64,000 nucleotides of DNA from Patescibacteria group bacterium (GTDB taxonomy: Bacteria > Patescibacteriota > Microgenomatia > 0-14-0-10-38-17): the NCBI GenBank assembly GCA_050953885.1, contig JBMNNJ010000001.1:74132-138131 (forward strand), in the 5' to 3' direction. The notes below the pieces were generated by a model that ran no database searches, was not told where the DNA came from, and saw only the letters and a list, made by a program, of their open reading frames with translations. A program made the position numbers and the translations under genes. This document shows positions 3,781 to 63,545 of this stretch, in pieces; positions within the stretch are counted from its first letter, which is position 1, and each line of letters starts with the position of its first letter.

Positions 3781-4030
3781 TCGCCCCGCTCTGGCGGGGC
3801 TGAAATTAAGAAATTGAAAATGGGGAAAAATTTTGTTTCATTATTGCGGGCTGACCATAACTGTCATTCTGACGAAAGTCAGAACGAATAACTAAATTCA
3901 AAAGTTAAAATTTAAAAGTCAAAAGTACAAGTTAAAATTAAAAAGTAGAGCAAAAAGAACTTTTAACTTTTGACTTGCAATTTTGATCCGCCAGCTGGCG
4001 GATTGACTTTTGAATTTTGAATTATTTTTT
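3781..4030. repeat. intergenic repeat cluster: GC hairpin gccccgc-tctg-gcggggc (possible lysS terminator), gtcattctgacgaaagtcagaa hairpin, AT-rich k-mer element, ccgccagctggcgg palindrome
   Basis: Every module recurs elsewhere in the window; see findings. Confidence 0.7.
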
Positions 4031-4643: not shown

Positions 4644-4747
4644 TAAGATAAATTATTAAACTGTTAAATTGTTATATTTTTTAGAAAATTCAAAATTAAA
4701 ACAAAAAAAACTTTTGACTTTTGAATTTTGCATTTTGAATTATCTTT

Positions 4748-11314: not shown

Positions 11315-11456
11315 AAAAAATTCAAAATTTAAAATTCAAAAGTTAAAATTACAACTCAAAATTAAAAAGTTTTTAGCGCGCACTGAAGTGCGCTACTACA
11401 AAAAATGGAATAGCGGACTTTAGTCCGCGCCGGTAATTTAACAATTTAAAAAATTC

Positions 11457-16190: not shown

Positions 16191-16315
16191 ATTTCTAATT
16201 TTCTTTGCTTGCGGCAGGTCGTCTACTGTAGGAGGATTGGCGCGGACTGCCTGCCCGCCCGCTGGCGGAAAGCACGCTATTTCATTTAACATCCAGCCAC
16301 ATTATTGTTTTATCG

Positions 16316-24049: not shown

Positions 24050-24300
24050 TTTTGTCCCGCCATAGCGGGACCCCGTTGCGGCGGGGCATTTTGATCCGCC
24101 AGCTGGCCTTGTACCAGCACGGTACAGAGCTGACGGACAGGGTTCATTCCTGTAGCTGTCATTCCTGAACTAAATTCAGGACAGGCTCTGACGAAAGTCA
24201 GGATCTAAATGATTCTGAATCAAGTTCAGAATGACGCTAATCGTGGCCGTCATTCTGATGAATCCGCCAGCTTGCGGATCAAATCTGAAAGCTACCACGC
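24050..24300. repeat. composite cluster of GC palindromes and hairpin modules in the divergent rtcB/24455 intergenic region
   Basis: gtcccgccatagcgggac, ccgccagctgg (interrupted), tctgacgaaagtcagga, gattctgaatcaagttcagaatgacg, gatccgcaagctggcggattc. Confidence 0.75.
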
Positions 24301-24454: not shown

Positions 24455-24958
24455 ATGCCCGATAAAAAAATTTTTTTCAACAATCCTGTTTTGGGGAAAA
24501 AATCGCTGGTGGAAGTGGTGGAGGAGATTGTGGCTTTTATTAACCATGACCCCCAATCTTTTTACCACTTAATTATTGGCACCGATTCGCAAGACCATGC
24601 ACTGGAGAAAGTTAATGGTTATCTTAATTTAGTCTCGGCGATTGTTATTTATCGCGACGGCCATGGCGGCCGTTATTTTTGGCGACGGCAAAGGCTGCCT
24701 CATTCCCGAAATCTTCGGGAGAAAATTTATCAGGAAACTCTTACCTCGTTGGACTTAGCGCAAAAGCTGGTGCCTTTGTTGCACCAAAAACTTAATGGTA
24801 ATGAATATGAGCTGGAGATTCATATTGATGTGGGTAATGCCGGGCCAACACGGGAAATGATTCGCGAGCTGGTGGCGATGGTAAATAGTAACGGGTTTCG
24901 GGCTAAAACCAAACCCGAATCATATGGCGCCACCTGCGTGGCGGATAAATACACCTAA
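24455..24958 (+). CDS. conserved hypothetical protein, possibly RNase-H-like DUF458/YkuK family (tentative)
   Basis: HLIIGTDSQ motif; 167 aa; family assignment from memory only. Confidence 0.35.
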   Translation: MPDKKIFFNNPVLGKKSLVEVVEEIVAFINHDPQSFYHLIIGTDSQDHALEKVNGYLNLVSAIVIYRDGHGGRYFWRRQRLPHSRNLREKIYQETLTSLDLAQKLVPLLHQKLNGNEYELEIHIDVGNAGPTREMIRELVAMVNSNGFRAKTKPESYGATCVADKYT

Positions 24959-24959
24959 A

Positions 24960-25180
24960 AAAAGTCAAAAGTTAAAAGTCAAAAGTTAAATATAAAAAGT
25001 TAGTAACTCGTAATAAGTAAATTCAAAATTCAAAAGTCAAAATTCAAAATTGCAAGTCAAAAGTTAAAAATTTTTTTATTCTACTTTTGAATTTTAACTT
25101 GTAATTTTGACTTTTAAATTTTAACTTTTGACTTTTAGTTATTCTCTGTCCGCCAGCTGGCGGACAGAATCATTCCCTCA
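24960..25180. repeat. about 170-bp AT-rich palindromic k-mer region (aaagtcaaaagttaaaa units) followed by the perfect 22-bp palindrome ctgtccgccagctggcggacag
   Basis: The 55-bp segment ttctacttttgaattttaacttgta.ttttgacttttaaatttt recurs at 30903 and, reverse-complemented, at 3905. Confidence 0.7.
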
Positions 25181-25422
25181 TTGCTACATTACTCTTGCTA
25201 TTATTATCTTGCTATTATTATCTTGCTATTATTGTCTTGTTATTATTACAGGTCTAATATCGTCATCATCGCTAGTGACTTATTTAGGGGGCGATCGCCC
25301 CTATTTTAATTCCCTTTTAAATTTAAAAATTTTTAGTTAATTATTTTTCTTCTATATTTTTAAAAATATAGCGGTAAAATATAGGTGAGTCAGAAAAAAG
25401 CCAGGCGAGAAAATTTTTTTAT

Positions 25423-30699: not shown

Positions 30700-30960
30700 A
30701 ATCAGTAGAGTAAAAGGCAAAGACCTGCCGCAGTGGGGTCTTGCTATGGCGGGACAAAACCTAAATCAAAGTTCAAAAACAAAAGATAAACTCAAATGTT
30801 AAATCGCAAAACGCAAATCTACAACGCAAAACTCAAAACTTGAAAGACAAAAACAGAATTACAATTTAGAAATACAAATATTAAGCCCCTAAAGTTTTTT
30901 TGTTCTACTTTTGAATTTTAACTTGTACTTTTGACTTTTAAATTTTGACTTTTGAATTTA
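30700..30960. repeat. intergenic repeats: gtaactcgtaacaagtaa unit, gcagtggggtcttgctatggcgggac palindrome, AT-rich k-mer element
   Basis: Shares the 55-bp AT-rich segment with 25084 and 3905. Confidence 0.65.
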
Positions 30961-35559: not shown

Positions 35560-35930
35560 AAATTATGACACGACTAACAAGCCGTCATTCTGAACTCGAT
35601 TCAGAATCGTTGTTTAATGCCTAAAGAAATGATTCTGATTTTCATCAGGACAACGCTTTCGTTAGAATGACGGCGGGAGGAGTCAGGATGACGACAGCCG
35701 TGCCGTCATTCCGGACTTGATCCGGAATCTGTGTTATTACCAAGGAAAGATTCTGACTTTCGTCAGAATGACAGAGAAGCGCCAGAATGACAGTAAGGGA
35801 ATAATTCTGCCTAATCAACTCCGGGGACTAATCCCGAGGTTTGAAGCTAAAAAAGTCCCGAGGTTTGAAGGCTCGCCAACTCCGGGGGTTAAATAGCTTC
35901 AAACCTCGGGAAAATAAGCAGAAATGATAA
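35560..35930. repeat. large composite repeat cluster (hairpin modules in both orientations plus tandem cccgaggtttgaag hairpins)
   Basis: gccgtcattctgaactcgattcagaatcg, gattccggatcaagtccggaatgacgg, cccgaggtttgaagc x2, gcttcaaacctcggg. Confidence 0.75.
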
Positions 35931-37524: not shown

Positions 37525-37760
37525 AGCTTAAAGTTGTTTTTTTAGATTTAAGTTTTGAATTGTTGTTTTGATCTGCCAGCTGGCGGATTGAGTTGTAGTT
37601 TTAAGTTTTGCGATTTAACATTTGAGTTTATTTTTTGTTTTTGAACTTTAATTTAGGTTCTAATCTTTTCCGCCAGCTGGCGGGTTGATATTTGATTTTT
37701 GTATTTTTTTAATACTGATTTTCATCAGGACAACAGTTGCGTTTTGTCCGTAGTCCAACC
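37441..37760. repeat. AT-rich element (reverse-complement copy of 50645-50710) plus ccgccagctggcgg palindromes
   Basis: gatctgccagctggcggattgag and ttccgccagctggcgggttg. Confidence 0.7.
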
Positions 37761-49441: not shown

Positions 49442-50353
49442 ATGAAAAGCGTTTCTATTATTATCCCCAACTGGAACGGCGAACGACAGTTAAAGAAAAA
49501 TTTGCCTTTATTATTTAATGTATTGGCTAAATTTAACGGGGAAAGCGAAATAATTATTATTGATGATCAGTCGGAAGATGGCTCCAGAGGATATCTTAAA
49601 AAGATGCGGAATCAGAAAAAACTTAGGCTTATTTTTAATAATAAGAATCTTGGTTTTGGCGGGAGCGTTAATAGGGGGGTAAGGGCGGCGCGATATGATA
49701 TTGTGTTTTTACTTAACACCGATGTGGAGGCGAAAACGGGTTGTTTTGAGCACATTTTGCCTCATTTTGAAAAAAAAGATGTTTTTGGAGTAGGAGCGAA
49801 TGCCGATTGGTTGGTGGGGCGGGGCCAATTTATTAACGGTTATTTTGATATTTCTTCGCCCATAAAAATAAAAAAAACTTGCCAAGAAGCGCAACCTTCA
49901 TTTTGGGTTTCCGGGGGCCATAGCGCTTTTAGGAAAAATCTTTGGGAAAAATTAGGCGGTCTTGACCCTCTTTACGCGCCCTTTTATTTTGAAGAAACCG
50001 ATCTTTGCTACCGCGCCTGGAAACGAGGCTGGAAAGTGCTTTTGGAGCCCAAGGCGCCGGTTTTACACAAGCACGAGGAAAGCGTGATTCGTCAAAATTT
50101 TTCGCCCCGGCATATTAGTTCTGTTGCCCAAAGAAACCAATTAATTTTTATCTGGAAAAACATCACCGATGAGAATATGTTTGCCGAACATAAAAAGGCC
50201 CTGATAAAGCGATTAGCCAAAAAGCCTTCTTATTTTAAGGTTTTTTTGACGGCGGCAAAAAAATGGCCGGAAATTAAAAGAAAACGAGCGATTGAAGAAA
50301 AAGAGATGGTTTTAACGGATAAAGAAATATTTGATAAATTTAAGATGAGATAG
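49442..50353 (+). CDS. GT2 glycosyltransferase
   Basis: SIIIPNWNG ... IIDDQSEDGS ... FYFEETDLCYR. Confidence 0.8.
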   Translation: MKSVSIIIPNWNGERQLKKNLPLLFNVLAKFNGESEIIIIDDQSEDGSRGYLKKMRNQKKLRLIFNNKNLGFGGSVNRGVRAARYDIVFLLNTDVEAKTGCFEHILPHFEKKDVFGVGANADWLVGRGQFINGYFDISSPIKIKKTCQEAQPSFWVSGGHSAFRKNLWEKLGGLDPLYAPFYFEETDLCYRAWKRGWKVLLEPKAPVLHKHEESVIRQNFSPRHISSVAQRNQLIFIWKNITDENMFAEHKKALIKRLAKKPSYFKVFLTAAKKWPEIKRKRAIEEKEMVLTDKEIFDKFKMR

Positions 50354-50399
50354 AAATAATAAACGGTAATTGTTTTTTATGATGAAAATTAAAGTCAAA

Positions 50400-50710
50400 A
50401 CAATCTAAATGCAAAGCGCGATCCGCCAGCTGGCGGACAGGATCTACCGTTCTTTAGACATTAATAACGATTCTGAATCAAGTTCAGAATGACGCTAATC
50501 GTAACCGTCATCCTGACGAAAGTCAGGATCTTTCCTTGTCATTAACACAGATTCCGGATCAAGTCCGGAATGACGGTTTCCGAGTTCGTCATTCTGACGA
50601 ATTCGCCAGCGGGCGGATTAAACTTTAAAAAGTTTTAACATTTACCATGTAGTTTTGCCATTTGACATTTGCGTTTTGAGATTTGAGTTTGTTTTTCGTG
50701 TCCATTCGTT
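50400..50710. repeat. composite intergenic repeat cluster (palindrome, three hairpin modules, AT-rich element)
   Basis: gatccgccagctggcggacaggatc; gattctgaatcaagttcagaatgacg; catcctgacgaaagtcaggat; gattccggatcaagtccggaatgacgg. Confidence 0.8.
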
Positions 50711-50728
50711 TCTTATTCGTTTTGGTTC

Positions 50729-53323
50729 ATGTCTTTTAGCAATGAAACAATGAAGCAGTCTAAGCCTCTTTTATCAATCATCATCGTTTCCTACAACACC
50801 CGGGAGCTTTTGGAAAAATGCCTTAACTCCGTGGTTAAATCATTAGCCGGCTCTAATCTTAAAAGCAACCAAGAAAAGATCCTGAACCAAGTTCAGGATG
50901 ACGCTAATCGCAACCGTCATCCTGACGATCCGCCAGCTGGCGGACAGGATCTGCCCTTGACCGAAATCATCGTTGTTGATAATAATTCCCGCGACGATTC
51001 GGTAGAAATGCTTCAAAATTTAAAATTGAAACTTGAAAATTCATTGAAAATTCAAAACTTAAAATTGAAAATTATTGTTAATAACGATAATCTTGGCTTT
51101 GCCAAGGCGGTTAATCAGGGAATTAAGAAAAGCCGAGGAGAATACTTGCTTCTTTTGAATTCCGACACGATTGTTCCTCCTCAAACTTTAGAAAAAATGA
51201 TTGAATTTGCCAGAAAGAAAAAAGACGCGGGCATTATTGCCCCCAAACTCTTAGATAAAAATGGAAAAACCTCCCAACCTTCCTGCTACCGTTTGCCGGC
51301 AATTAAGGGAGCCGTTAAAGAATTTTGGTTAGGGGAAAAAGGTGCTTTTGGAAAATATCTTCCCCGTGGCGGCAATCCGGTTAAGCCAGAAGCGGTGGTA
51401 GGGGCGGCGATGCTTATTCCCCGAGCCGTTTATGATGTGGTGGGCGAGTTTGACGAAAAATATTTTATGTATTATGAGGATTTAGACTATTGCCGCCGTG
51501 TTAGAGAAGCGGGATTTGCGGTTTATTATTTACCAACCGCTAAGATTATTCATTATCATGGTCAAAGCGGCCAAAAAGAGCCTCAAAAAGTTAATCGCCA
51601 TCTTATTGAAAGCAGTAAAAAATATCATGGCCGCCTAAAACATTTTTTCTTAAATGCCATCATTCGCCTTGGTCAGGCTAAAAAGTTTTTGCCGCTTATC
51701 CTTTTGGTTTTGGCAATGTTGGTCTGGTCGGTTCATCATTTATATTTTTTAAAACCTGCTTTTCCAAAAACCCATGATGGCCATTTTCACCTTATTCGTT
51801 TAGCTGAATTTGACCGATCTTTCAAAGCAGGTATTATTCCCCCTCGCTGGGCACCGGGTTTGGCCAATGGTTTGGGAGCGCCAGTTTTTAATTATTTTTA
51901 TCCCTTGGTTTATTACCTGGGAGAAGGATTTCATCTTTTGGGCTTTTCTTTTGCTTCCTCTCTTAAATTGGTGGCCGCTCTTTCTTGCTTTGCGGCTTTT
52001 TTCTTTAGCTTTCTTTTCTTTAAACTTTTTTTTGCTACCCTATCAAGTTTCTTGGGGGCAAGTTTAGTGGTTTATGCTCCCTACAGCTTTCTTAATCTTT
52101 TTGTGCGCGGAGAATTTCCAGAAATTTTGGCCCTTTGCCTTTTACCGGCAATTTTCTGGGCCACCACCAAGGCGGTTTTAAATAAAGAAAAAAACCGCCA
52201 TTTTCTTTTAGCCGCTCTTCCTTGGGCGTTGATAATTTTATCCCACAATATTATTGCCCTGCTAGCTACTGTCTGGTTGATAATTTTTTTATTTTTAGTT
52301 TTAATCAGGGATAGAAAAGCCGCTAAAAAAACAATTTTTATTTTTTTGTTATCGCTTGCTTTAAGCGCCTTTTTTTGGATACCGGCATTGGGAGAAATGA
52401 AATATGTTCATCTGGGTTATGATGAAGTTTTTTCCTGGTGGGACCATTTTCCCACTCTTAGGCAGTTAATTTATTCTCCTTGGGGGCATGGTTATTCTTA
52501 TCCGGGACAAAGCGATGAAATGTCTTTTCAAATTGGCTTACCCCATCTTTTTCTTTCCCTATCGGCAGGGATACTTCTTTTAATCCAGCTTTTCAAAGAC
52601 AAGAAAAATTTTTGGAAAAGCTGGAAAAATCTAGCCATTTTTTTCTTTGCCTTTTCTTCTTTTACCTTTATCTTTTTAATGAATCACCGCTCTTCTTTTT
52701 TCTGGCAAACGCTTCCTTTTCTTTCCCGGGTCCAGTTTCCGTGGCGGTTTTTGGGATTTTTAAATTTTTCTCTTTGTTTCTTAATTACTTTTTTCTTAGA
52801 ACAGCTTTTATCTTTTTCAAAAGAAAAAATCGCCTTGCCAGTTATTTTTCTTATTTTTATCGGAACATTTTTTGCTTATTTTGGTTATATCCGGCCGGAA
52901 AGTTATCTTACTCAAGAAGTAATCTTTAATTCAAATGAAGTGCGGGAAACCACTACCAATGCCAATGAAATTTTACCGATTTGGGCGCCAAAAGATAGTT
53001 ATCAAAATATTAATTTAACCAATACAATAGAGTGTAAAGAGTTTTCCTGCGAAACATCAACTGCCTTTAACCAAGAAAAAGAAGTTATTTTCAGAAAATT
53101 TTATTTTCCTTCTTGGCAGGGAAAAATTGATGACTTTCCTTTAAGGCTTTATCCTCAAGAAAAAACAGGCTTGATAGCCGCGCTGGTTCCGGCCGGAAAT
53201 CATCAGGTTAGGATAGAGTGGGGGAAAACTAATCTTGAAAGGGCGGCCGATTATATCAGTCTTGCTTCGCTTGTCTTTTTGTTTTCTTTTATTACGATCT
53301 TTAAAAAGAAAAAATTAACTTGA
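50729..53323 (+). CDS. fusion protein: N-terminal GT2 domain plus C-terminal large GT-C-like polytopic membrane domain (YfhO-like family)
   Basis: LSIIIVSYNTRE ... VVDNNSRDDS ... YYEDLDYCRR, then FPKTHDGHFHLIRL ... IPPRWAP ... GAPVFNYFYPLVYY and C-terminal FYFPSWQG. Confidence 0.8.
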   Translation: MSFSNETMKQSKPLLSIIIVSYNTRELLEKCLNSVVKSLAGSNLKSNQEKILNQVQDDANRNRHPDDPPAGGQDLPLTEIIVVDNNSRDDSVEMLQNLKLKLENSLKIQNLKLKIIVNNDNLGFAKAVNQGIKKSRGEYLLLLNSDTIVPPQTLEKMIEFARKKKDAGIIAPKLLDKNGKTSQPSCYRLPAIKGAVKEFWLGEKGAFGKYLPRGGNPVKPEAVVGAAMLIPRAVYDVVGEFDEKYFMYYEDLDYCRRVREAGFAVYYLPTAKIIHYHGQSGQKEPQKVNRHLIESSKKYHGRLKHFFLNAIIRLGQAKKFLPLILLVLAMLVWSVHHLYFLKPAFPKTHDGHFHLIRLAEFDRSFKAGIIPPRWAPGLANGLGAPVFNYFYPLVYYLGEGFHLLGFSFASSLKLVAALSCFAAFFFSFLFFKLFFATLSSFLGASLVVYAPYSFLNLFVRGEFPEILALCLLPAIFWATTKAVLNKEKNRHFLLAALPWALIILSHNIIALLATVWLIIFLFLVLIRDRKAAKKTIFIFLLSLALSAFFWIPALGEMKYVHLGYDEVFSWWDHFPTLRQLIYSPWGHGYSYPGQSDEMSFQIGLPHLFLSLSAGILLLIQLFKDKKNFWKSWKNLAIFFFAFSSFTFIFLMNHRSSFFWQTLPFLSRVQFPWRFLGFLNFSLCFLITFFLEQLLSFSKEKIALPVIFLIFIGTFFAYFGYIRPESYLTQEVIFNSNEVRETTTNANEILPIWAPKDSYQNINLTNTIECKEFSCETSTAFNQEKEVIFRKFYFPSWQGKIDDFPLRLYPQEKTGLIAALVPAGNHQVRIEWGKTNLERAADYISLASLVFLFSFITIFKKKKLT
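50878..50951 (+). repeat. 74-75 bp hairpin repeat element inserted in-frame inside the GT2 domain of the 50729 gene (encodes KILNQVQDDANRNRHPDDPPAGGQD)
   Basis: Near-identical to intergenic copies at 50468-50545 and 53400-53545: gatcctgaaccaagttcaggatgacgctaatcgcaaccgtcatcctgacgatccgccagctggcggacaggatc. Confidence 0.8.
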
Positions 53324-53369
53324 GTTATATCCAAATCTTTATGGCAAAACGTAATTTTGCCTCTTGGCC

Positions 53370-53620
53370 CCGTATAATTTTGGTACGGGACTTGACGAGT
53401 TCGTCATCCTGACGAAAGTCAGGATCTGCCTTTGGCATTAACACAGATTCCGGATCAAGTCCGGAATGACGGTTTCCGAGTTTGTCGTTCTGACTCCTCT
53501 TACCGTCATTCTGACAATCCGCCAGCTGGCGGACAGGATCTGCCTCTTTCTGACGATAAGGCAGATTATAAGACAGATTCTGAATTAAATTCAGCATGAC
53601 GACCAGGGGATTATTTATGT
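53370..53620. repeat. composite repeat cluster (same modules as 50400-50640)
   Basis: The 90-aa minus-strand ORF here is simply a translation of the repeats. Confidence 0.8.
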
Positions 53621-60371: not shown

Positions 60372-62117
60372 ATGAAAAAGGAAACATTTTTTTTAAAAAC
60401 CAAAAAAATTCTTCCTGTCATCTTAATTTTGCTTTTAGGAGCTTATTGTTCGAAAGGCCTTTTTACTTATCATTTTTTTAGCACTCATGACGGCGACCAT
60501 CATCTTGCTCGTAGTTATGATGCCGTAAAGACGCTTTCGGAAGGACATTTTCCGCTTCGTTGGGCGGGTAGTTTAAATTATTTCTGCGGGATTCCTATTT
60601 TTAATTTTTTCTACCCCCTTTTTTACTATTTAATTTTTCTGGTTAATCTTTTAGTTGGCGATATTATTTTCTCGCTAAAAATCGTTTATGTTTTAAGCTT
60701 TACGCTTGCTCCTTTGTTTTTTTATCTTTGGCTAAAGAGGGAGACTAAGAACCCCATCGCCTCACTTTTAGGGGCGATACTTTATCTTTTTGTTCCCTAT
60801 CGTTTCTTGCTTGTTTTTGTTCGCTCCAGTCCCGAATTTATGGCTTATACGATTTTACCGGTTTTTTTATATCTTTTAAGTATTTTCTTTGAAAAAATTA
60901 AGAAAAAAGAAAGAAACGCTGCTTACCTTTTTGGCTTTTTAACTTCTCTTTCGGGAGCGGCTTTAATTACCGCTCATCAATTAATAGCCTTTTTGCTCTT
61001 TCCGATTATTTTTTTATGGTTTGTAATAAAAACTTGGCAAACAAAAGTTTACAAGCAAAAAGTTAATTTTTTATGGCTTATTTTTTTAACGGCGGTATCT
61101 ATTGTTGGCTTGAGCGCTTTTTTTTGGGGACCGGTTTTTTTAGAAAAAGGGGAAGTTAAAATCGGAGAGTTGGAGGTTATTAGCTACTGGCAACATTTTC
61201 CTTCTTTAAAACAATTAATTCATTCCCCCTGGGGTTACTTTTATTCCGCTCCCGGTGTTGAAAATGATGGCATGTCTTTTTCCTTAGGTTATGCACAATG
61301 GGCGGTTTTGGGGTTGTCGGGAATTTGGTTGGTAATTAAGGCGGTAAAAACAGGACTTCTTAAAACAATGAGAGAAAATTTTGGAGTGCTATTTTTCTTT
61401 TTAATCTCTGTTTTCGCTCTTTTTCTGATGCTTGAACAATCTAGGTTTGTTTGGGAGCTATTTGTTTTATTGCAAGAAGTTCAGTTTCCTTGGCGTTTTT
61501 TGGGAGTAACCTCTTTTACTATTGCTGCCTTAGGGGGGTTTTGGTTAACACAGATTGGCAACAAAAAAATTGTTTATGCTTTGGCAATATTAATTTCTTT
61601 TTTGGCAATCTATGGTAATCGCAACCATCTTCTCCCCCAACCCTTAGCAGAACCAGAAAGATACGAAGATTTTGAGAGGCTACATCCCCATCGGTATAGC
61701 ACGACTACTCTTGGAGATGATATTCTTAATAGAGAAGCCGAAAAGGCATGTTATTTTGGTGACCCTTTTCTTTTAGTTAATAAAGAAAAAATTGAAAATA
61801 AACTTAATCGGGGCAATACTTTTGGAGAGGTTTACTTTAAATGGCCCCAGCAAGAAGCAAGTGCAACAATTAATCTTAATTTAGAATACTTTCCCGGGAT
61901 CTATAAAATTAAGATCAATGGAGAAGAAATAAAAAAAATCAGCAATTTTTCAGGAAGAATAGCTTTAGAAGAGATTTCTTTAAAAGAAGGGGAAAATGTT
62001 ATTAGCTGGCAAATCGTCCAGTCGCCAATTGAGCGGTTTTTTAATGGTGTTAGCTTGGGTTTTTTAGTCCTTTGGTTGATTTTAATACCAATCTATGAAA
62101 TTAAAAGGAAAGCTTAA
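60372..62117 (+). CDS. large polytopic membrane protein, GT-C-like (YfhO-like family; paralog of 40164 and 50729 C-terminal half)
   Basis: FFSTHDGDHHLARS ... FPLRWAG ... GIPIFNFFYPLFYY. Confidence 0.5.
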   Translation: MKKETFFLKTKKILPVILILLLGAYCSKGLFTYHFFSTHDGDHHLARSYDAVKTLSEGHFPLRWAGSLNYFCGIPIFNFFYPLFYYLIFLVNLLVGDIIFSLKIVYVLSFTLAPLFFYLWLKRETKNPIASLLGAILYLFVPYRFLLVFVRSSPEFMAYTILPVFLYLLSIFFEKIKKKERNAAYLFGFLTSLSGAALITAHQLIAFLLFPIIFLWFVIKTWQTKVYKQKVNFLWLIFLTAVSIVGLSAFFWGPVFLEKGEVKIGELEVISYWQHFPSLKQLIHSPWGYFYSAPGVENDGMSFSLGYAQWAVLGLSGIWLVIKAVKTGLLKTMRENFGVLFFFLISVFALFLMLEQSRFVWELFVLLQEVQFPWRFLGVTSFTIAALGGFWLTQIGNKKIVYALAILISFLAIYGNRNHLLPQPLAEPERYEDFERLHPHRYSTTTLGDDILNREAEKACYFGDPFLLVNKEKIENKLNRGNTFGEVYFKWPQQEASATINLNLEYFPGIYKIKINGEEIKKISNFSGRIALEEISLKEGENVISWQIVQSPIERFFNGVSLGFLVLWLILIPIYEIKRKA

Positions 62118-63459
62118 TTGGTCTTGCCTAACTTTGTTGGCAGTTTTGGTTATTTTTCTTTTTCTTCGTTTTTACCAACTGCCCCAACGAACCATTTTTA
62201 ATTGGGATCAGGAAAGGGATGCTTTTGAAGTGCAAAAAATTCTTTCTGGCGACCCAAGCCTTATCGGCCCGCGTGTTTTGGGGCCGCAAGGGTTTTTCTT
62301 AGGCCCTTATTTTTACTATCTTTTAGCGCCATTTTATTTCCTCACCGGCGGCCACCCCCAAGCGATTGTTTATTTCCTAATCGTCTTGAACCTTGTTTTT
62401 TTCTTGGCCGCCTATTTGATTGTTAAAAAAATCTGGGGAGAAAAAACCGCCCTAATCTTTCTTTTTCTTTGGACGATTAATCCGGCGGCAATAGAAACGG
62501 TGGCCTGGAATCCGACCCTAATCCCCTTAATGATTATTTTAATCTGGTTTACCCTTTCTCAAAAAAGTTATTTTTGGTTGGGCTTAAGCCTTTCTTTGGC
62601 GATTAATTTCCATTTTCAGGCAGTTTTTTTGGCGCCTTTTATTTTACTTTTTTTGTTTTGGCAAAGAGAGCTTTCGGGAAAAAATTTAGGCAAAGCGGCG
62701 TTGGGATTTTTTTTACCCTTTATTCCCTTGCTTCTTTTTGACTTACGACATAACTTCTTAAATTTTAAGCTTTTGGGGCAGTTTATAAAAGAGCGAGGCG
62801 AGGGGGGCAATTTTTTGGCTTGGCGGCCGGTGCTGGCTAATTTTTTAACTGGCTTTTGGGGGGAGGAAAAAATTTGGCTCCCCTTGACTTTAGCGCTTGT
62901 TCTTTTAACCCTGTGGCTTGTTAAAAAGCAAAAAAATTATTTTTCCAAAAACTTTCTTAAAAGTCTTCTTTTTCTTTACCCCATTGTTTTGTTGGGTTTT
63001 AGCATTTATGGCCAAAGACCGTCGGAATATTATTTTAATTTTCTTTTACCCTTTTTTATTTTAGTTTTGGCCTTATTTATCAGCTCTTTTGGCAAATTAA
63101 AACGGCTGTTTTTTTTGCTTCTTTTTATTCTTCTCTGGTTGCCAAAAACGATGGAAAAAACCGTTCCTGTTTCGGTTAGTTTGTTGGCGAAAGACAAAGC
63201 AATTGCTTATTTGGTAGAAAAAAACGGGAAAATACCGGCGGAAGTTCGCTATCAAACTCCTTTAGGCGAGGAAGCAGGTTTTTCCTATTTGCTAAATTAC
63301 TACGGCTTGGAAAAAGCGACCGAAGGAGAAAGAAAAATCTGGCTGGTAAGCATTCCGCCGGCAGAAGAAAGCCAAGCTTTTGGTGGAGTGGGAGTAAAAT
63401 TAATAGGAGAGGAAAAAAATTTGCTTATTAACAACGATTCTGAATCAAGTTCAGAATGA
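62095..63459 (+). CDS. polytopic membrane glycosyltransferase-like protein (paralog of 35962); stop codon supplied by a repeat element
   Basis: FNWDQERDAFEV ... IGPRVLGPQGFFLGPYFYY. Confidence 0.5.
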   Translation: MKLKGKLNWSCLTLLAVLVIFLFLRFYQLPQRTIFNWDQERDAFEVQKILSGDPSLIGPRVLGPQGFFLGPYFYYLLAPFYFLTGGHPQAIVYFLIVLNLVFFLAAYLIVKKIWGEKTALIFLFLWTINPAAIETVAWNPTLIPLMIILIWFTLSQKSYFWLGLSLSLAINFHFQAVFLAPFILLFLFWQRELSGKNLGKAALGFFLPFIPLLLFDLRHNFLNFKLLGQFIKERGEGGNFLAWRPVLANFLTGFWGEEKIWLPLTLALVLLTLWLVKKQKNYFSKNFLKSLLFLYPIVLLGFSIYGQRPSEYYFNFLLPFFILVLALFISSFGKLKRLFFLLLFILLWLPKTMEKTVPVSVSLLAKDKAIAYLVEKNGKIPAEVRYQTPLGEEAGFSYLLNYYGLEKATEGERKIWLVSIPPAEESQAFGGVGVKLIGEEKNLLINNDSESSSE

Positions 63460-63545
63460 CTGTAACCGCAGTCGTCATTCTAACGATCCGCTCGCTGGCG
63501 GACAGAATCTGTTTTGATTCTGAATCAAATTCAGAATAACGCTCT
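63425..63545. repeat. composite hairpin-module cluster
   Basis: gattctgaatcaagttcagaatgac; gtcgtcattctaacgatccgctcgctggcggacagaatc; gattctgaatcaaattcagaataacg. Confidence 0.75.

What the first reader, a model, noticed from the sequence alone, without database searches (positions are those of the whole stretch)
50400..50640. Modular hairpin repeats with fully compensatory stem substitutions, indicating selection on secondary structure
Hairpin 1 occurs as attctgaa-tcaag-ttcagaat (24217, 50471, 63440), atcctgaa-ccaag-ttcaggat (50879) and attccgga-tcaag-tccggaat (50557, 53445). Each change on one stem strand is matched on the other. Hairpin 2 shows the same pattern: ttctgac-gaaa-gtcagaa (3862) versus tcctgac-gaaa-gtcagga (50522, 53403). 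The modules are joined in different orders with the ccgccagctggcgg palindrome, which is sometimes nested in the loop of hairpin 2 as at 50910-50951. Covarying stems are the hallmark of elements recognised as folded single-stranded DNA or RNA. The best-known such systems are REP/BIME elements and their IS200/IS605-like RAYT (REP-associated tyrosine transposase), and ssDNA hairpin recognition by TnpA of IS608. The observation predicts a hairpin-binding mobilising enzyme encoded elsewhere in the genome, or alternatively a structured small-RNA family.
Basis: partly seen in the sequence, partly recalled or inferred. Interest (0 to 1): 0.72.

Follow-up and report, generated by a model that had tools for sequence, protein, structure and literature searches.

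The report
CGTC-tagged hairpin repeats, CPR genome
The region is a cluster of short hairpin-forming DNA repeats from an already described, very widespread bacterial family (CGTC-tagged REPs, which a small single-strand-DNA nuclease called Ssn recognises in Neisseria). Its host here is a tiny-genome 'candidate phyla radiation' bacterium, for which I found no earlier report of such repeats.

Summary
The window holds 13 simple hairpin units (0.6 expected by chance) plus about 10 nested or degenerate ones, in 11 places. Stems differ between copies by fully compensated changes.

The units have one fixed anatomy: an unpaired CGTC/TGTC tag, an 8-9 bp stem starting AT, a CTTGA or GAAA loop, then an invariant C. 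They alternate in orientation, like BIMEs. This matches the published CGTC-tagged REP superfamily (Di Nocera 2013; includes Neisseria dRS3 and Rickettsia RPE-4/-6).

In 129 of 140 viral hits all three free pairs were Watson-Crick, across 19 different stems.

No transposase lies in the window, and the one RAYT-like gene found near a unit carries a different REP. The characterised partner of this family is SsnA, a ~95-aa GIY-YIG ssDNA nuclease (Chenal 2025). I confirmed that 9 of 12 Ssn-homologue loci are flanked on both sides by CGTC hairpins with the same two loop types.

No ssn gene is in this window, and the published SRM search motif does not match these AT-rich units.

Verdict: new member of a known kind, in a Shapirobacteria-like CPR genome, with one in-frame copy inside a glycosyltransferase gene.

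The parts
50420..50444 (+). Left end of the finding's cluster. A nested-palindrome module, GATCCGCCAGCTGGCGGACAGGATC, without a clear CGTC tag.
   Evidence: pairs with the right end of the cluster in the fold
50467..50494 (-). CGTC unit with a 5-nt loop: cGTC ATTCTGAA cttga TTCAGAAT cgt.
   Evidence: folds as drawn, ssDNA -5.6 kcal/mol
50506..50532 (+). CGTC unit with a 4-nt loop: cGTC ATCCTGAC gaaa GTCAGGAT ctt. Its tag faces the tag of the previous unit across 11 nt.
   Evidence: ssDNA -7.3 kcal/mol, z = -4.3
50548..50575 (-). CGTC unit with a 5-nt loop and the stem variant ATTCCGGA/TCCGGAAT. Two pairs are compensated relative to ATTCTGAA.
50587..50619 (+). Degenerate CGTC unit with a nested palindrome (CGTCATTCTGACGAATTCGCCAGCGGGCGGATT). 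This is the right end of the cluster.
50876..50954 (.). Intragenic dimer of a 5-nt-loop unit (50876-50903, minus strand) and a nested-palindrome unit (50915-50954, plus strand). Together with four adjoining bases (50875-50955) it makes an 81-nt segment read in frame as KILNQVQDDANRNRHPDDPPAGGQDL, inside the GT2 domain of ORF 50729-53323.
53402..53601 (.). Second 200-nt cluster. Units at 53402-53428(+), 53444-53471(-), nested 53504-53543(+) and 53574-53601(-). It is 94% identical to 50506-50598 over 93 nt.
35583..35800 (.). Cluster in a divergent intergenic region. Units at 35583-35610(+), 35704-35731(+) and 35747-35773(-), plus degenerate tag-bearing remnants at 35631-35655, 35660-35672, 35682-35693 and 35781-35793.
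24157..24287 (.). Cluster made of a degenerate TGTC unit (24157-24185), a degenerate 4-nt-loop unit (24181-24207), a 5-nt-loop unit (24209-24236, minus strand) and a nested-palindrome unit (24248-24287, plus strand).
63434..63541 (.). Cluster overlapping the stop of ORF 62095-63459. Units at 63434-63461(-), nested 63473-63511(+) and 63514-63541(-).
3862..3888 (+). Solitary 4-nt-loop unit: tGTC ATTCTGAC gaaa GTCAGAAC gaa.
25147..25171 (+). Palindrome module TGTCCGCCAGCTGGCGGACAGAATC. Bare copies of the TCCGCCAGCTGGCGGA palindrome also lie at 1607-1622, 3987-4002, 16254-16269 (degenerate), 37572-37587 and 37669-37684.

Best explanation
The modules are members of the CGTC-tagged REP superfamily, the class that contains Neisseria dRS3/NTS and Rickettsia RPE-4/-6. 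The host is a Shapirobacteria-like CPR bacterium.

Each unit is an oriented element: an unpaired (C/T)GTC tag, an 8-9 bp stem that begins A-T, T-A, a 4- or 5-nt loop, and a C immediately after the stem. Units are strung together in alternating orientation into 80-200 nt mosaics.

Most likely mechanism, inferred by analogy rather than shown here. When DNA is single-stranded (during replication, repair, or uptake of transforming DNA) each unit folds into a hairpin. A small single-domain GIY-YIG nuclease of the Ssn family, encoded elsewhere in the genome, binds that hairpin and nicks a few bases 5' of the tag.

What is selected is the hairpin plus the fixed flanking bases. This explains why inner stem positions vary freely but always in compensated pairs.

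The clusters come and go quickly between close relatives and can sit in frame in tolerant protein loops. How copies multiply is not known for any member of this class.
For: Anatomy. Of 13 simple units, 12 carry CGTC or TGTC (one AGTC). All 13 stems start AT. Loops are CTTGA/CTCGA or GAAA. G2, T3 and C26 are invariant. These are the defining features listed by Di Nocera 2013.

Agreement with the SsnA mutagenesis. Chenal 2025 report that the C just after the palindrome is the base most critical for SsnA binding, and that the 3 nt upstream matter most for cleavage. Both are fixed in the window units.

Structure conservation beyond the window. Of 140 viral-contig hits to a pattern leaving three pairs free, 129 have all three pairs Watson-Crick. 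These span 19 distinct stems, in hosts of 31-73% GC. An anchor-only search that did not ask for pairing found 38 of 77 elements with 6/6 inner pairs, using 20 different arms.

My own check of the Ssn link. The N. gonorrhoeae GIY-YIG gene (Pfam PF01541, 4e-19) sits among 12 CGTC units in 1.5 kb. In 9 of 12 Ssn-homologue loci, CGTC hairpins lie 16-66 nt from both gene ends. Their loops are CTTGA or GAAA/GAAG, the same two classes as in the window. A nested-hairpin variant lies next to ssn in L254.

Turnover. A relative with 95% nucleotide identity in the flanks (L123) lacks the intragenic dimer and has an unrelated upstream spacer. A syntenic 12-kb stretch of another Shapirobacteria genome has 1 unit, against about 8 in the same stretch here.
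Against: No GIY-YIG/Ssn gene is present in the 64-kb window or in 1.9 Mb of loci fetched through the hairpin (phmmer; the probe was validated by tblastn).

The published SRM search motif matches none of the window units, because their stems are AT-richer.

The 3-nt tail is C-K-T or C-T-G rather than the CCA typical of the family.

I could not show that any CPR genome encodes an Ssn homologue; the search returned only Flavobacterium-like proteins. Chenal 2025 also report that 19% of SRM-rich genomes lack an ssn homologue.

ssDNA binding and cleavage were not tested here and cannot be with these tools.
Confidence: 0.55

Rival explanations
1. REP/BIME elements mobilised by a RAYT or IS200/IS605-type HUH tyrosine transposase.
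For: The architecture is BIME/REPIN-like. Units alternate in orientation with short spacers, and 55 of 63 adjacent opposite-orientation pairs in the viral loci lie tags-outward within 80 nt. An unpaired conserved tag beside a hairpin is how RAYTs read GTAG REPs.
Against: The tag is CGTC, not GTAG. Di Nocera 2013 found no RAYT or IS200 gene flanked by CGTC units in any of the genomes analysed. No Y1_Tnp domain occurs in about 50 window ORFs. The only Y1 transposase in 1.9 Mb of loci (L179; PF01797, 1.2e-5) is flanked by a different hairpin (CGAGTGGGACACTCG), with CGTC units 2-5 kb away.
Confidence: 0.07
2. The hairpins act mainly at the RNA level. They would be transcribed at the ends of or between genes, where they stabilise, terminate or mark mRNAs for processing, and that use maintains the stems.
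For: Most clusters lie between genes on the same strand. One cluster (63434-63541) overlaps the stop of the gene before it. Di Nocera 2013 argue that many REPs are transcribed and sit just 3' of ORFs. The cluster also folds strongly as RNA (-89 kcal/mol, z = -8.5).
Against: There is no T-run and no excess of terminator-like sites (29 found, 22 expected). Three clusters lie in divergent promoter regions. Units occur in both orientations. Non-Watson-Crick cells show no G-U over A-C asymmetry (5 versus 3 distinct cases). SsnA does not bind the RNA form of the NTS. There is no Rfam match.
Confidence: 0.15
3. These are relics or selfish palindromes with no current partner. Stem symmetry would then be kept by mutation bias, through intrastrand template switching that corrects quasi-palindromes, rather than by selection.
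For: Templated correction of quasi-palindromes is an established mutational mechanism and would give 'compensated' arms without selection (my own knowledge; not tested here). Di Nocera 2013 consider that CGTC families may be heading for extinction. Many window units are degenerate (24157-24207, 35631-35800).
Against: This does not explain why the unpaired tag, the first two stem pairs, the loop classes and the C after the stem are conserved from CPR to Alphaproteobacteria at 31-73% GC. It does not explain why the same elements bracket ssn genes. Recent gain in this lineage relative to a 95%-identical relative argues for ongoing activity.
Confidence: 0.15
4. A family of free-standing structured small RNAs.
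For: Covarying stems.
Against: Units are only 27-28 nt and occur in both orientations. One copy is inside a coding frame. No promoter or terminator signature is seen, and there is no Rfam hit.
Confidence: 0.03

Closest known systems
CGTC-tagged REPs, families CGTC-1 (4-nt loop) and CGTC-2 (8-bp stem, 5-nt loop), Di Nocera, De Gregorio & Rocco 2013 (PMC3733652)
   Same: Unpaired CGTC/TGTC tag. Stem of 8-9 bp starting with complementary AT. Loops of 4 or 5 nt. An unpaired 3-nt tail. Dimers in opposite orientation. Mostly intergenic, with occasional in-frame intragenic dimers encoding 20-30 aa. No flanking transposase.
   Different: The tail is CKT/CTG rather than CCA. Stems are AT-rich (ATTCTGAA, ATCCTGAC). 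Units are mostly grouped in mosaics, with both tags-inward and tags-outward junctions, whereas the paper reports clusters as rare. There is an extra unit type with a second palindrome (TCCGCCAGCTGGCGGA) nested in the loop. The host phylum (CPR/Patescibacteria) is not among the five phyla listed in 2013.
Neisseria NTS/dRS3 and Ssn-related motifs (SRM) with the SsnA GIY-YIG ssDNA nuclease, Chenal et al. 2025 (PMC11893778)
   Same: Same tag, stem start, GAAA-type loop and C after the palindrome as the NTS (CGTCATTCCCGCGMAVGCGGGAATCYRG). Dense mosaics near envelope or surface genes. The elements I found flanking ssn homologues have the same two loop classes and a nested variant.
   Different: The published SRM degenerate motif does not match any window unit. 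No ssn gene is in the window. No functional data exist for any CPR organism.
Rickettsia palindromic elements RPE-4/RPE-6 (equated with CGTC-4/CGTC-1 by Di Nocera 2013)
   Same: A palindromic repeat inserted in frame in a protein-coding gene without breaking it. Here this is 27 codons in a variable loop of a GT2 glycosyltransferase.
   Different: Only one intragenic copy is seen in 64 kb. Expression of the decorated protein has not been shown.
E. coli REP/BIME and Pseudomonas REPINs with RAYT transposases
   Same: A short tagged hairpin, alternating orientation, mosaic clusters and doublets.
   Different: The tag differs (GTAG versus CGTC). The enzyme class differs: HUH Y1 transposase versus, for this class, a GIY-YIG nuclease or none known. 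No RAYT association was found.

Membership tests
CGTC-tagged REP superfamily (Di Nocera 2013) | Unpaired CGTC (or TGTC/CCTC) tetranucleotide at one end of the hairpin | tested here: met
   9 CGTC, 3 TGTC and 1 AGTC among 13 simple units. G2 and T3 are invariant and C4 is present in 90% of the ten 5-nt-loop units.
CGTC-tagged REP superfamily (Di Nocera 2013) | Stem of 8-9 bp whose first two pairs are A-T and T-A | tested here: met
   All 13 simple units qualify. The degenerate unit at 24181 does not.
CGTC-tagged REP superfamily (Di Nocera 2013) | Loop of 4 nt (CGTC-1) or 5 nt (CGTC-2 to -4) | tested here: met
   GAAA in 4 units and CTTGA/CTCGA in 7. Two units read as a 9-bp stem with a 3-nt loop.
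CGTC-tagged REP superfamily (Di Nocera 2013) | Short unpaired tail, mostly CCA | tested here: inconclusive
   The first tail base is C in 12 of 13 units, but tails read CGT, CTG, CTT or CAT, not CCA. In the viral hits the tail is CCA or CTA.
CGTC-tagged REP superfamily (Di Nocera 2013) | Multi-copy, dispersed, mostly intergenic, with partners in opposite orientation | tested here: met
   11 loci in 64 kb, of which 10 are intergenic and 1 intragenic. Orientation alternates within clusters.
Ssn-related motif / NTS-Ssn system (Chenal 2025) | Match to the SRM search motif HGTCWYN(0-2)YYVSBRHN(0-5)WNVSBRGN(0-2)RNCYNB | tested here: not met
   0 matches in the window on either strand. The canonical NTS matches as a positive control. 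Failure is at inner stem positions, where the motif demands G/C.
Ssn-related motif / NTS-Ssn system (Chenal 2025) | Conserved bases shown by mutagenesis to matter: 3 nt upstream of the palindrome (cleavage) and the C right after it (binding) | tested here: met
   GTC precedes all 13 units and C follows 12 of 13 (compared).
Ssn-related motif / NTS-Ssn system (Chenal 2025) | A single-domain GIY-YIG (cd10448) gene in the same genome, typically bracketed by the motif | not testable with these tools
   None is present in the 64-kb window or in any fetched locus (Pfam on window ORFs). The rest of the genome is not available. The architecture itself was verified in other taxa.
Ssn-related motif / NTS-Ssn system (Chenal 2025) | Strand-specific binding and cleavage of the element as ssDNA | not testable with these tools
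   This needs purified protein and oligonucleotides.
GTAG REP/BIME with RAYT | GTAG/GTGG tetranucleotide at the end of the hairpin | tested here: not met
   The tag is CGTC/TGTC in every unit.
GTAG REP/BIME with RAYT | RAYT (Y1 HUH transposase) gene flanked by the repeats | tested here: not met
   No Y1_Tnp domain in the window ORFs. The L179 RAYT-like gene is flanked by another REP type. The literature agrees.
IS200/IS605 (IS608-type) ends or PATE derivatives | Subterminal hairpins in the same orientation at both ends of an element that carries or once carried tnpA/tnpB | tested here: not met
   Units pair in opposite orientation. No tnpA or tnpB is present. An IS200 TnpA probe (valid: PF01797, 2.8e-38) finds nothing.
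MITE | Terminal inverted repeats with target-site duplications | tested here: inconclusive
   The 200-nt cluster has inverted ends. No direct repeat flanks it or the intragenic dimer on inspection. No clean empty site was available.
Rfam RNA families | Score at or above a family's gathering threshold | tested here: not met
   Only tRNA-Glu in the whole window. Nothing credible at E up to 10 in 50350-51000.

The most novel reading that the evidence does not exclude
CPR bacteria carry a divergent, AT-rich branch of the CGTC/SRM elements that published search motifs miss. These would be paired either with a so far unrecognised Ssn-type ssDNA nuclease or with a different small partner.

The mosaics bracket cell-envelope glycosylation genes. 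They might therefore control which incoming single-stranded DNA can recombine there, in organisms thought to depend heavily on DNA uptake.

Because CPR genomes are only about 1 Mb, the partner, and perhaps the still unknown copying mechanism of the whole class, might be easier to pin down there.
Probability: 0.2. Interest if true: 0.6.

Novelty: new member of a known kind. Interest (0 to 1): 0.33.

Why it matters
It places a repeat class with a recently discovered ssDNA-nuclease partner in the candidate phyla radiation. It also shows that the published SRM search motif under-detects AT-rich members, so the family is probably broader than current counts suggest.

Practically, these mosaics break metagenome assemblies, and they generate spurious gene calls and in-frame 'insertions' that annotators should recognise.

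How CGTC elements multiply remains an open question, and a 1-Mb genome rich in them is a convenient place to look. Beyond that, the finding is an ordinary member of a described family.

Tried and rejected
- **Rfam.** Searched at gathering and permissive thresholds and found nothing relevant.
- **Literal sequence search of the literature.** Nothing found. The family was identified by its CGTC tag instead.
- **RAYT/IS200 hypothesis.** Pfam on about 40 window ORFs, plus precomputed Pfam labels for about 10 more, gave no transposase. An IS200 TnpA probe against all six-frame ORFs of 1.9 Mb found nothing. My recalled RAYT probe failed Pfam validation. It still led to one genuine Y1_Tnp ORF (L179), which is flanked by another REP type.
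- **Guilt by association.** I clustered 812 ORFs lying within 250 nt of units, and separately listed ORFs bracketed by units. Only phage or GTA structural genes and spurious high-GC ORFs recur. No candidate partner emerged.
- **Published SRM regex.** 0 matches in the window.
- **Ssn gene.** A crude GIY-YIG regex and phmmer probes found none in the window or loci.
- **Attempt to reach CPR Ssn homologues.** A protein search seeded with a low-GC homologue returned only Flavobacterium-type proteins, so it is uninformative for CPR.
- **Terminator or promoter role.** No enrichment.
- **RNaseH-like (PF04308) ORF 24455-24958.** It is bracketed by repeats and I considered it as a partner. I rejected it as unsupported, because four window genes are bracketed by chance-level adjacency and there is no NCBIfam hit.
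- **Genome-collection scan with the GT2 protein.** It gave only one true relative, truncated before the insertion site.

Full report
**What is in the sequence**

The stretch 50420-50619 lies between two glycosyltransferase genes. It is a chain of five hairpin modules.

A pattern for the main hairpin, with up to two mismatches, gives 10 matches in the window against 0.01 expected. A general finder (GTC, then R-Y, then a stem of at least 7 bp with at most one mismatch) gives 13 simple units against 0.57 in dinucleotide-preserving shuffles. About ten further units are degenerate or carry a second palindrome in the loop. Together they occupy about 1.1 kb (1.7%) of the window, in 11 places.

**Anatomy**

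Read with the tag first, every simple unit is (C/T)GTC, then AT plus six variable stem bases, then a loop, then the complementary arm ending AT, then C.

- There are two loop classes: CTTGA/CTCGA (5 nt) and GAAA (4 nt).
- A third module type keeps the tag and the outer stem (ATYCTG...CAGRAT) but holds the palindrome TCCGCCAGCTGGCGGA inside.
- Units alternate in orientation. Tags face each other across 11-13 nt, or bodies face each other across 22-29 nt.
- As a result, the whole 200-nt cluster can also fold as one long imperfect palindrome (ssDNA -52 kcal/mol, z = -8.7).
- Single units fold as drawn.

**Compensation**

Within the window, the 5-nt-loop units pair in 98.4% of cells, and three of eight pairs change on both sides. 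The 4-nt-loop units add one such pair. That amounts to only about four independent events.

The stronger test came from outside the window. Of 140 hits, 129 had all three free pairs Watson-Crick, where about 1 in 64 would be expected for unrelated bases. These used 19 distinct stems, in contigs of 31-73% GC.

A search anchored only on the flanks (GGAT...ATGACR) excluded the ascertained hits and found 77 distinct elements. Of these, 38 had six of six inner pairs, using 20 different arms. The stems are therefore conserved as structure, not as sequence. The unconstrained flanks are also conserved: T-R-G before the body and G after GAC.

**What it is**

The conserved CGTC end led to Di Nocera, De Gregorio and Rocco 2013. 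They define a 'CGTC-tagged' REP superfamily by these features:

- an unpaired CGTC (or TGTC) tag;
- 8-9 bp stems that almost invariably start with complementary AT;
- loops of 4 nt (CGTC-1) or 5 nt (CGTC-2 to -4);
- a 3-nt tail;
- dimers with tags outside;
- occasional in-frame intragenic dimers encoding 20-30 aa;
- no associated transposase.

They equate CGTC-1 with Neisseria dRS3, and CGTC-1/-4 with Rickettsia RPE-6/-4. The window units meet every feature except the tail, which starts with C but is not CCA. In my viral sample, 55 of 63 adjacent opposite-orientation pairs were tags-outward within 80 nt, as the paper describes. The alpha-type variant occurs in many copies in intergenic DNA of Sphingobium, Novosphingobium, Skermanella, Rhizobium and Shinella megaplasmids.

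**The partner enzyme**

Chenal et al. 2025 show that the Neisseria NTS (CGTCATTCCCGCGMAVGCGGGAATCYRG, which contains dRS3) is bound only as ssDNA. It is cut a few nucleotides upstream by SsnA, a small single-domain GIY-YIG nuclease. The ssn genes are typically bracketed by such motifs. The C just after the palindrome is the base most critical for binding, and the three bases upstream matter most for cleavage.

I checked the association independently.

- A consensus probe recalled from memory hit annotated 'GIY-YIG nuclease family protein' genes at 50-66% identity, including one in N. gonorrhoeae.
- That gene (Pfam GIY-YIG, 4e-19) sits among 12 CGTC units in 1.5 kb.
- In 9 of 12 homologue loci, CGTC hairpins lie 16-66 nt from both gene ends, usually tags-outward.
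- Their loops are CTTGA or GAAA/GAAG, the same two classes as here. A nested-hairpin variant lies next to ssn in L254.
- The bases that matter for SsnA are the ones that are invariant in the window units.

**What is not shown**

- No ssn gene lies in the window or in 1.9 Mb of loci fetched through the hairpin.
- The published SRM degenerate motif matches no window unit, because it demands G/C at inner stem positions.
- I could not establish that any CPR genome has an Ssn homologue.

The mechanism is therefore inferred by family resemblance. Only the class membership is demonstrated.

About 40 window ORFs scanned against Pfam, plus precomputed Pfam labels for about ten more, are housekeeping and envelope-glycosylation genes with no transposase. 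A validated IS200 TnpA probe found nothing. The one Y1_Tnp ORF in the fetched loci (L179) is flanked by a different hairpin, with CGTC units kilobases away. This is the situation Di Nocera et al. report for whole genomes. Clustering the ORFs near units gave no other recurrent candidate.

**Host and turnover**

The closest genome record is a Candidatus Shapirobacteria MAG. Its orthologue is 77% identical at the amino-acid level and the neighbouring genes are syntenic. In its 12 kb it has one CGTC unit and a few degenerate remnants, where the window has two 200-nt clusters.

A second relative (GCA_029563935.1) is 93.5-95% identical in nucleotides on either side of the GT2 insert. However, it carries a different tandem repeat there and an unrelated upstream spacer.

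The same population, 100% identical, occurs in several JGI and SRA samples. Two of those contigs end inside the cluster.

Three metagenome loci share both the 5-nt-loop unit and the 16-nt palindrome. L141 and L210 additionally carry a GAAA-loop unit with the stem ATCCTGAT. In L141, a sortase gene is bracketed by ~190-nt inverted mosaics of these modules.

**The intragenic copy**

An 81-nt segment at 50875-50955 holds one 5-nt-loop unit and one nested unit. It is read in frame as 27 residues between the first strand and the DxD region of a GT2 domain. This loop ranges from absent to about 30 residues longer among homologues. It parallels the RPE-type insertions already described for this class.

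**Rival explanations**

- An RNA-level role is not excluded. However, there is no terminator signature, no orientation bias, and no G-U asymmetry.
- Palindrome correction by template switching could help keep arms symmetric. It does not explain the conserved unpaired tag, the loop classes and the trailing C across phyla.
- A free-standing sRNA family is unlikely.

**Verdict**

The element is a new member of a known class, in a phylum where I found no earlier report. Its partner is plausible but unverified. Interest is moderate to low.

Noticed in passing
window 3894-3947, 4003-4021, 4714-4739, 11317-11368, 24960-25137, 30906-30960, 51012-51077: A second repeat family of 7-nt-period A/T-rich arrays (AAAAGTY / ACTTTTGAATTTTG). 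There are 16 matches to one 19-mer against 0.27 expected. They are often arranged as inverted arrays around the TCCGCCAGCTGGCGGA palindrome. One array lies in frame inside the GT2 gene (KLKLENSLKIQNLKLKI), where homologue P0011 has an even longer low-complexity insert.
   Followed up: partly
window 50830-50961 versus L123 278-394: The GT2 loop that holds the CGTC dimer here holds a different tandem repeat, (ACTTCACGCCTCAA)n, in a relative whose flanks are 93.5-95% identical. Other homologues have other low-complexity inserts or none. The loop is a hot spot for in-frame repeat insertion.
   Followed up: partly
window 53325-53597 (minus strand); L124 4292-4564: A 90-aa ORF called as a gene in the JGI annotation is made almost entirely of the repeat cluster (…NRHSGLDPESV…). 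It is almost certainly spurious.
   Followed up: no
L126 and L129 (ends correspond to window 50487 and 50498): Two independent metagenome assemblies of the same strain break inside the 50420-50619 cluster. The repeats fragment assemblies.
   Followed up: no
L141 9775-9930 and 10940-11100: In a CPR-like metagenome contig, a sortase gene is bracketed by ~190-nt perfect inverted copies of a mosaic of the same modules. The inverted repeat extends 24 nt beyond the outermost tags. It looks like a 'motif-gene-motif' cassette, or an invertible or duplicated segment.
   Followed up: partly
L179 3784-4332 (minus strand) and flanks: A RAYT-like Y1 transposase gene (PF01797, 1.2e-5) flanked by its own REP type (CGAGTGGGACACTCG hairpins). 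It lies in a 38% GC contig that also carries two CGTC units 2-5 kb away.
   Followed up: partly
L260 1170-1500 and 1790-2100 (Flavobacterium-like): An Ssn homologue flanked by another repeat type, GTCATTGCGAG...GAAGCAATC. It has a short stem and a long purine-rich loop. This is a further divergent motif class next to an ssn gene.
   Followed up: no
window 25181-25249: A 14-nt tandem repeat (ATTATCTTGCTATT, 4.3 copies, 91% matches) just downstream of a palindrome module.
   Followed up: no
window 24455-24958: An RNaseH-like (PF04308/DUF458) ORF bracketed by a CGTC cluster upstream and a palindrome module downstream. The adjacency is probably chance: four genes in the window are similarly bracketed.
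   Followed up: partly
viral loci L004, L011, L018, L036, L116 and others: In GC-rich contigs, CGTC dimers recur at the same intergenic positions between portal, terminase and capsid-type genes (annotation inferred from the translations, not Pfam-checked) in different contigs. This may explain why so many IMG/VR contigs carry the motif.
   Followed up: no
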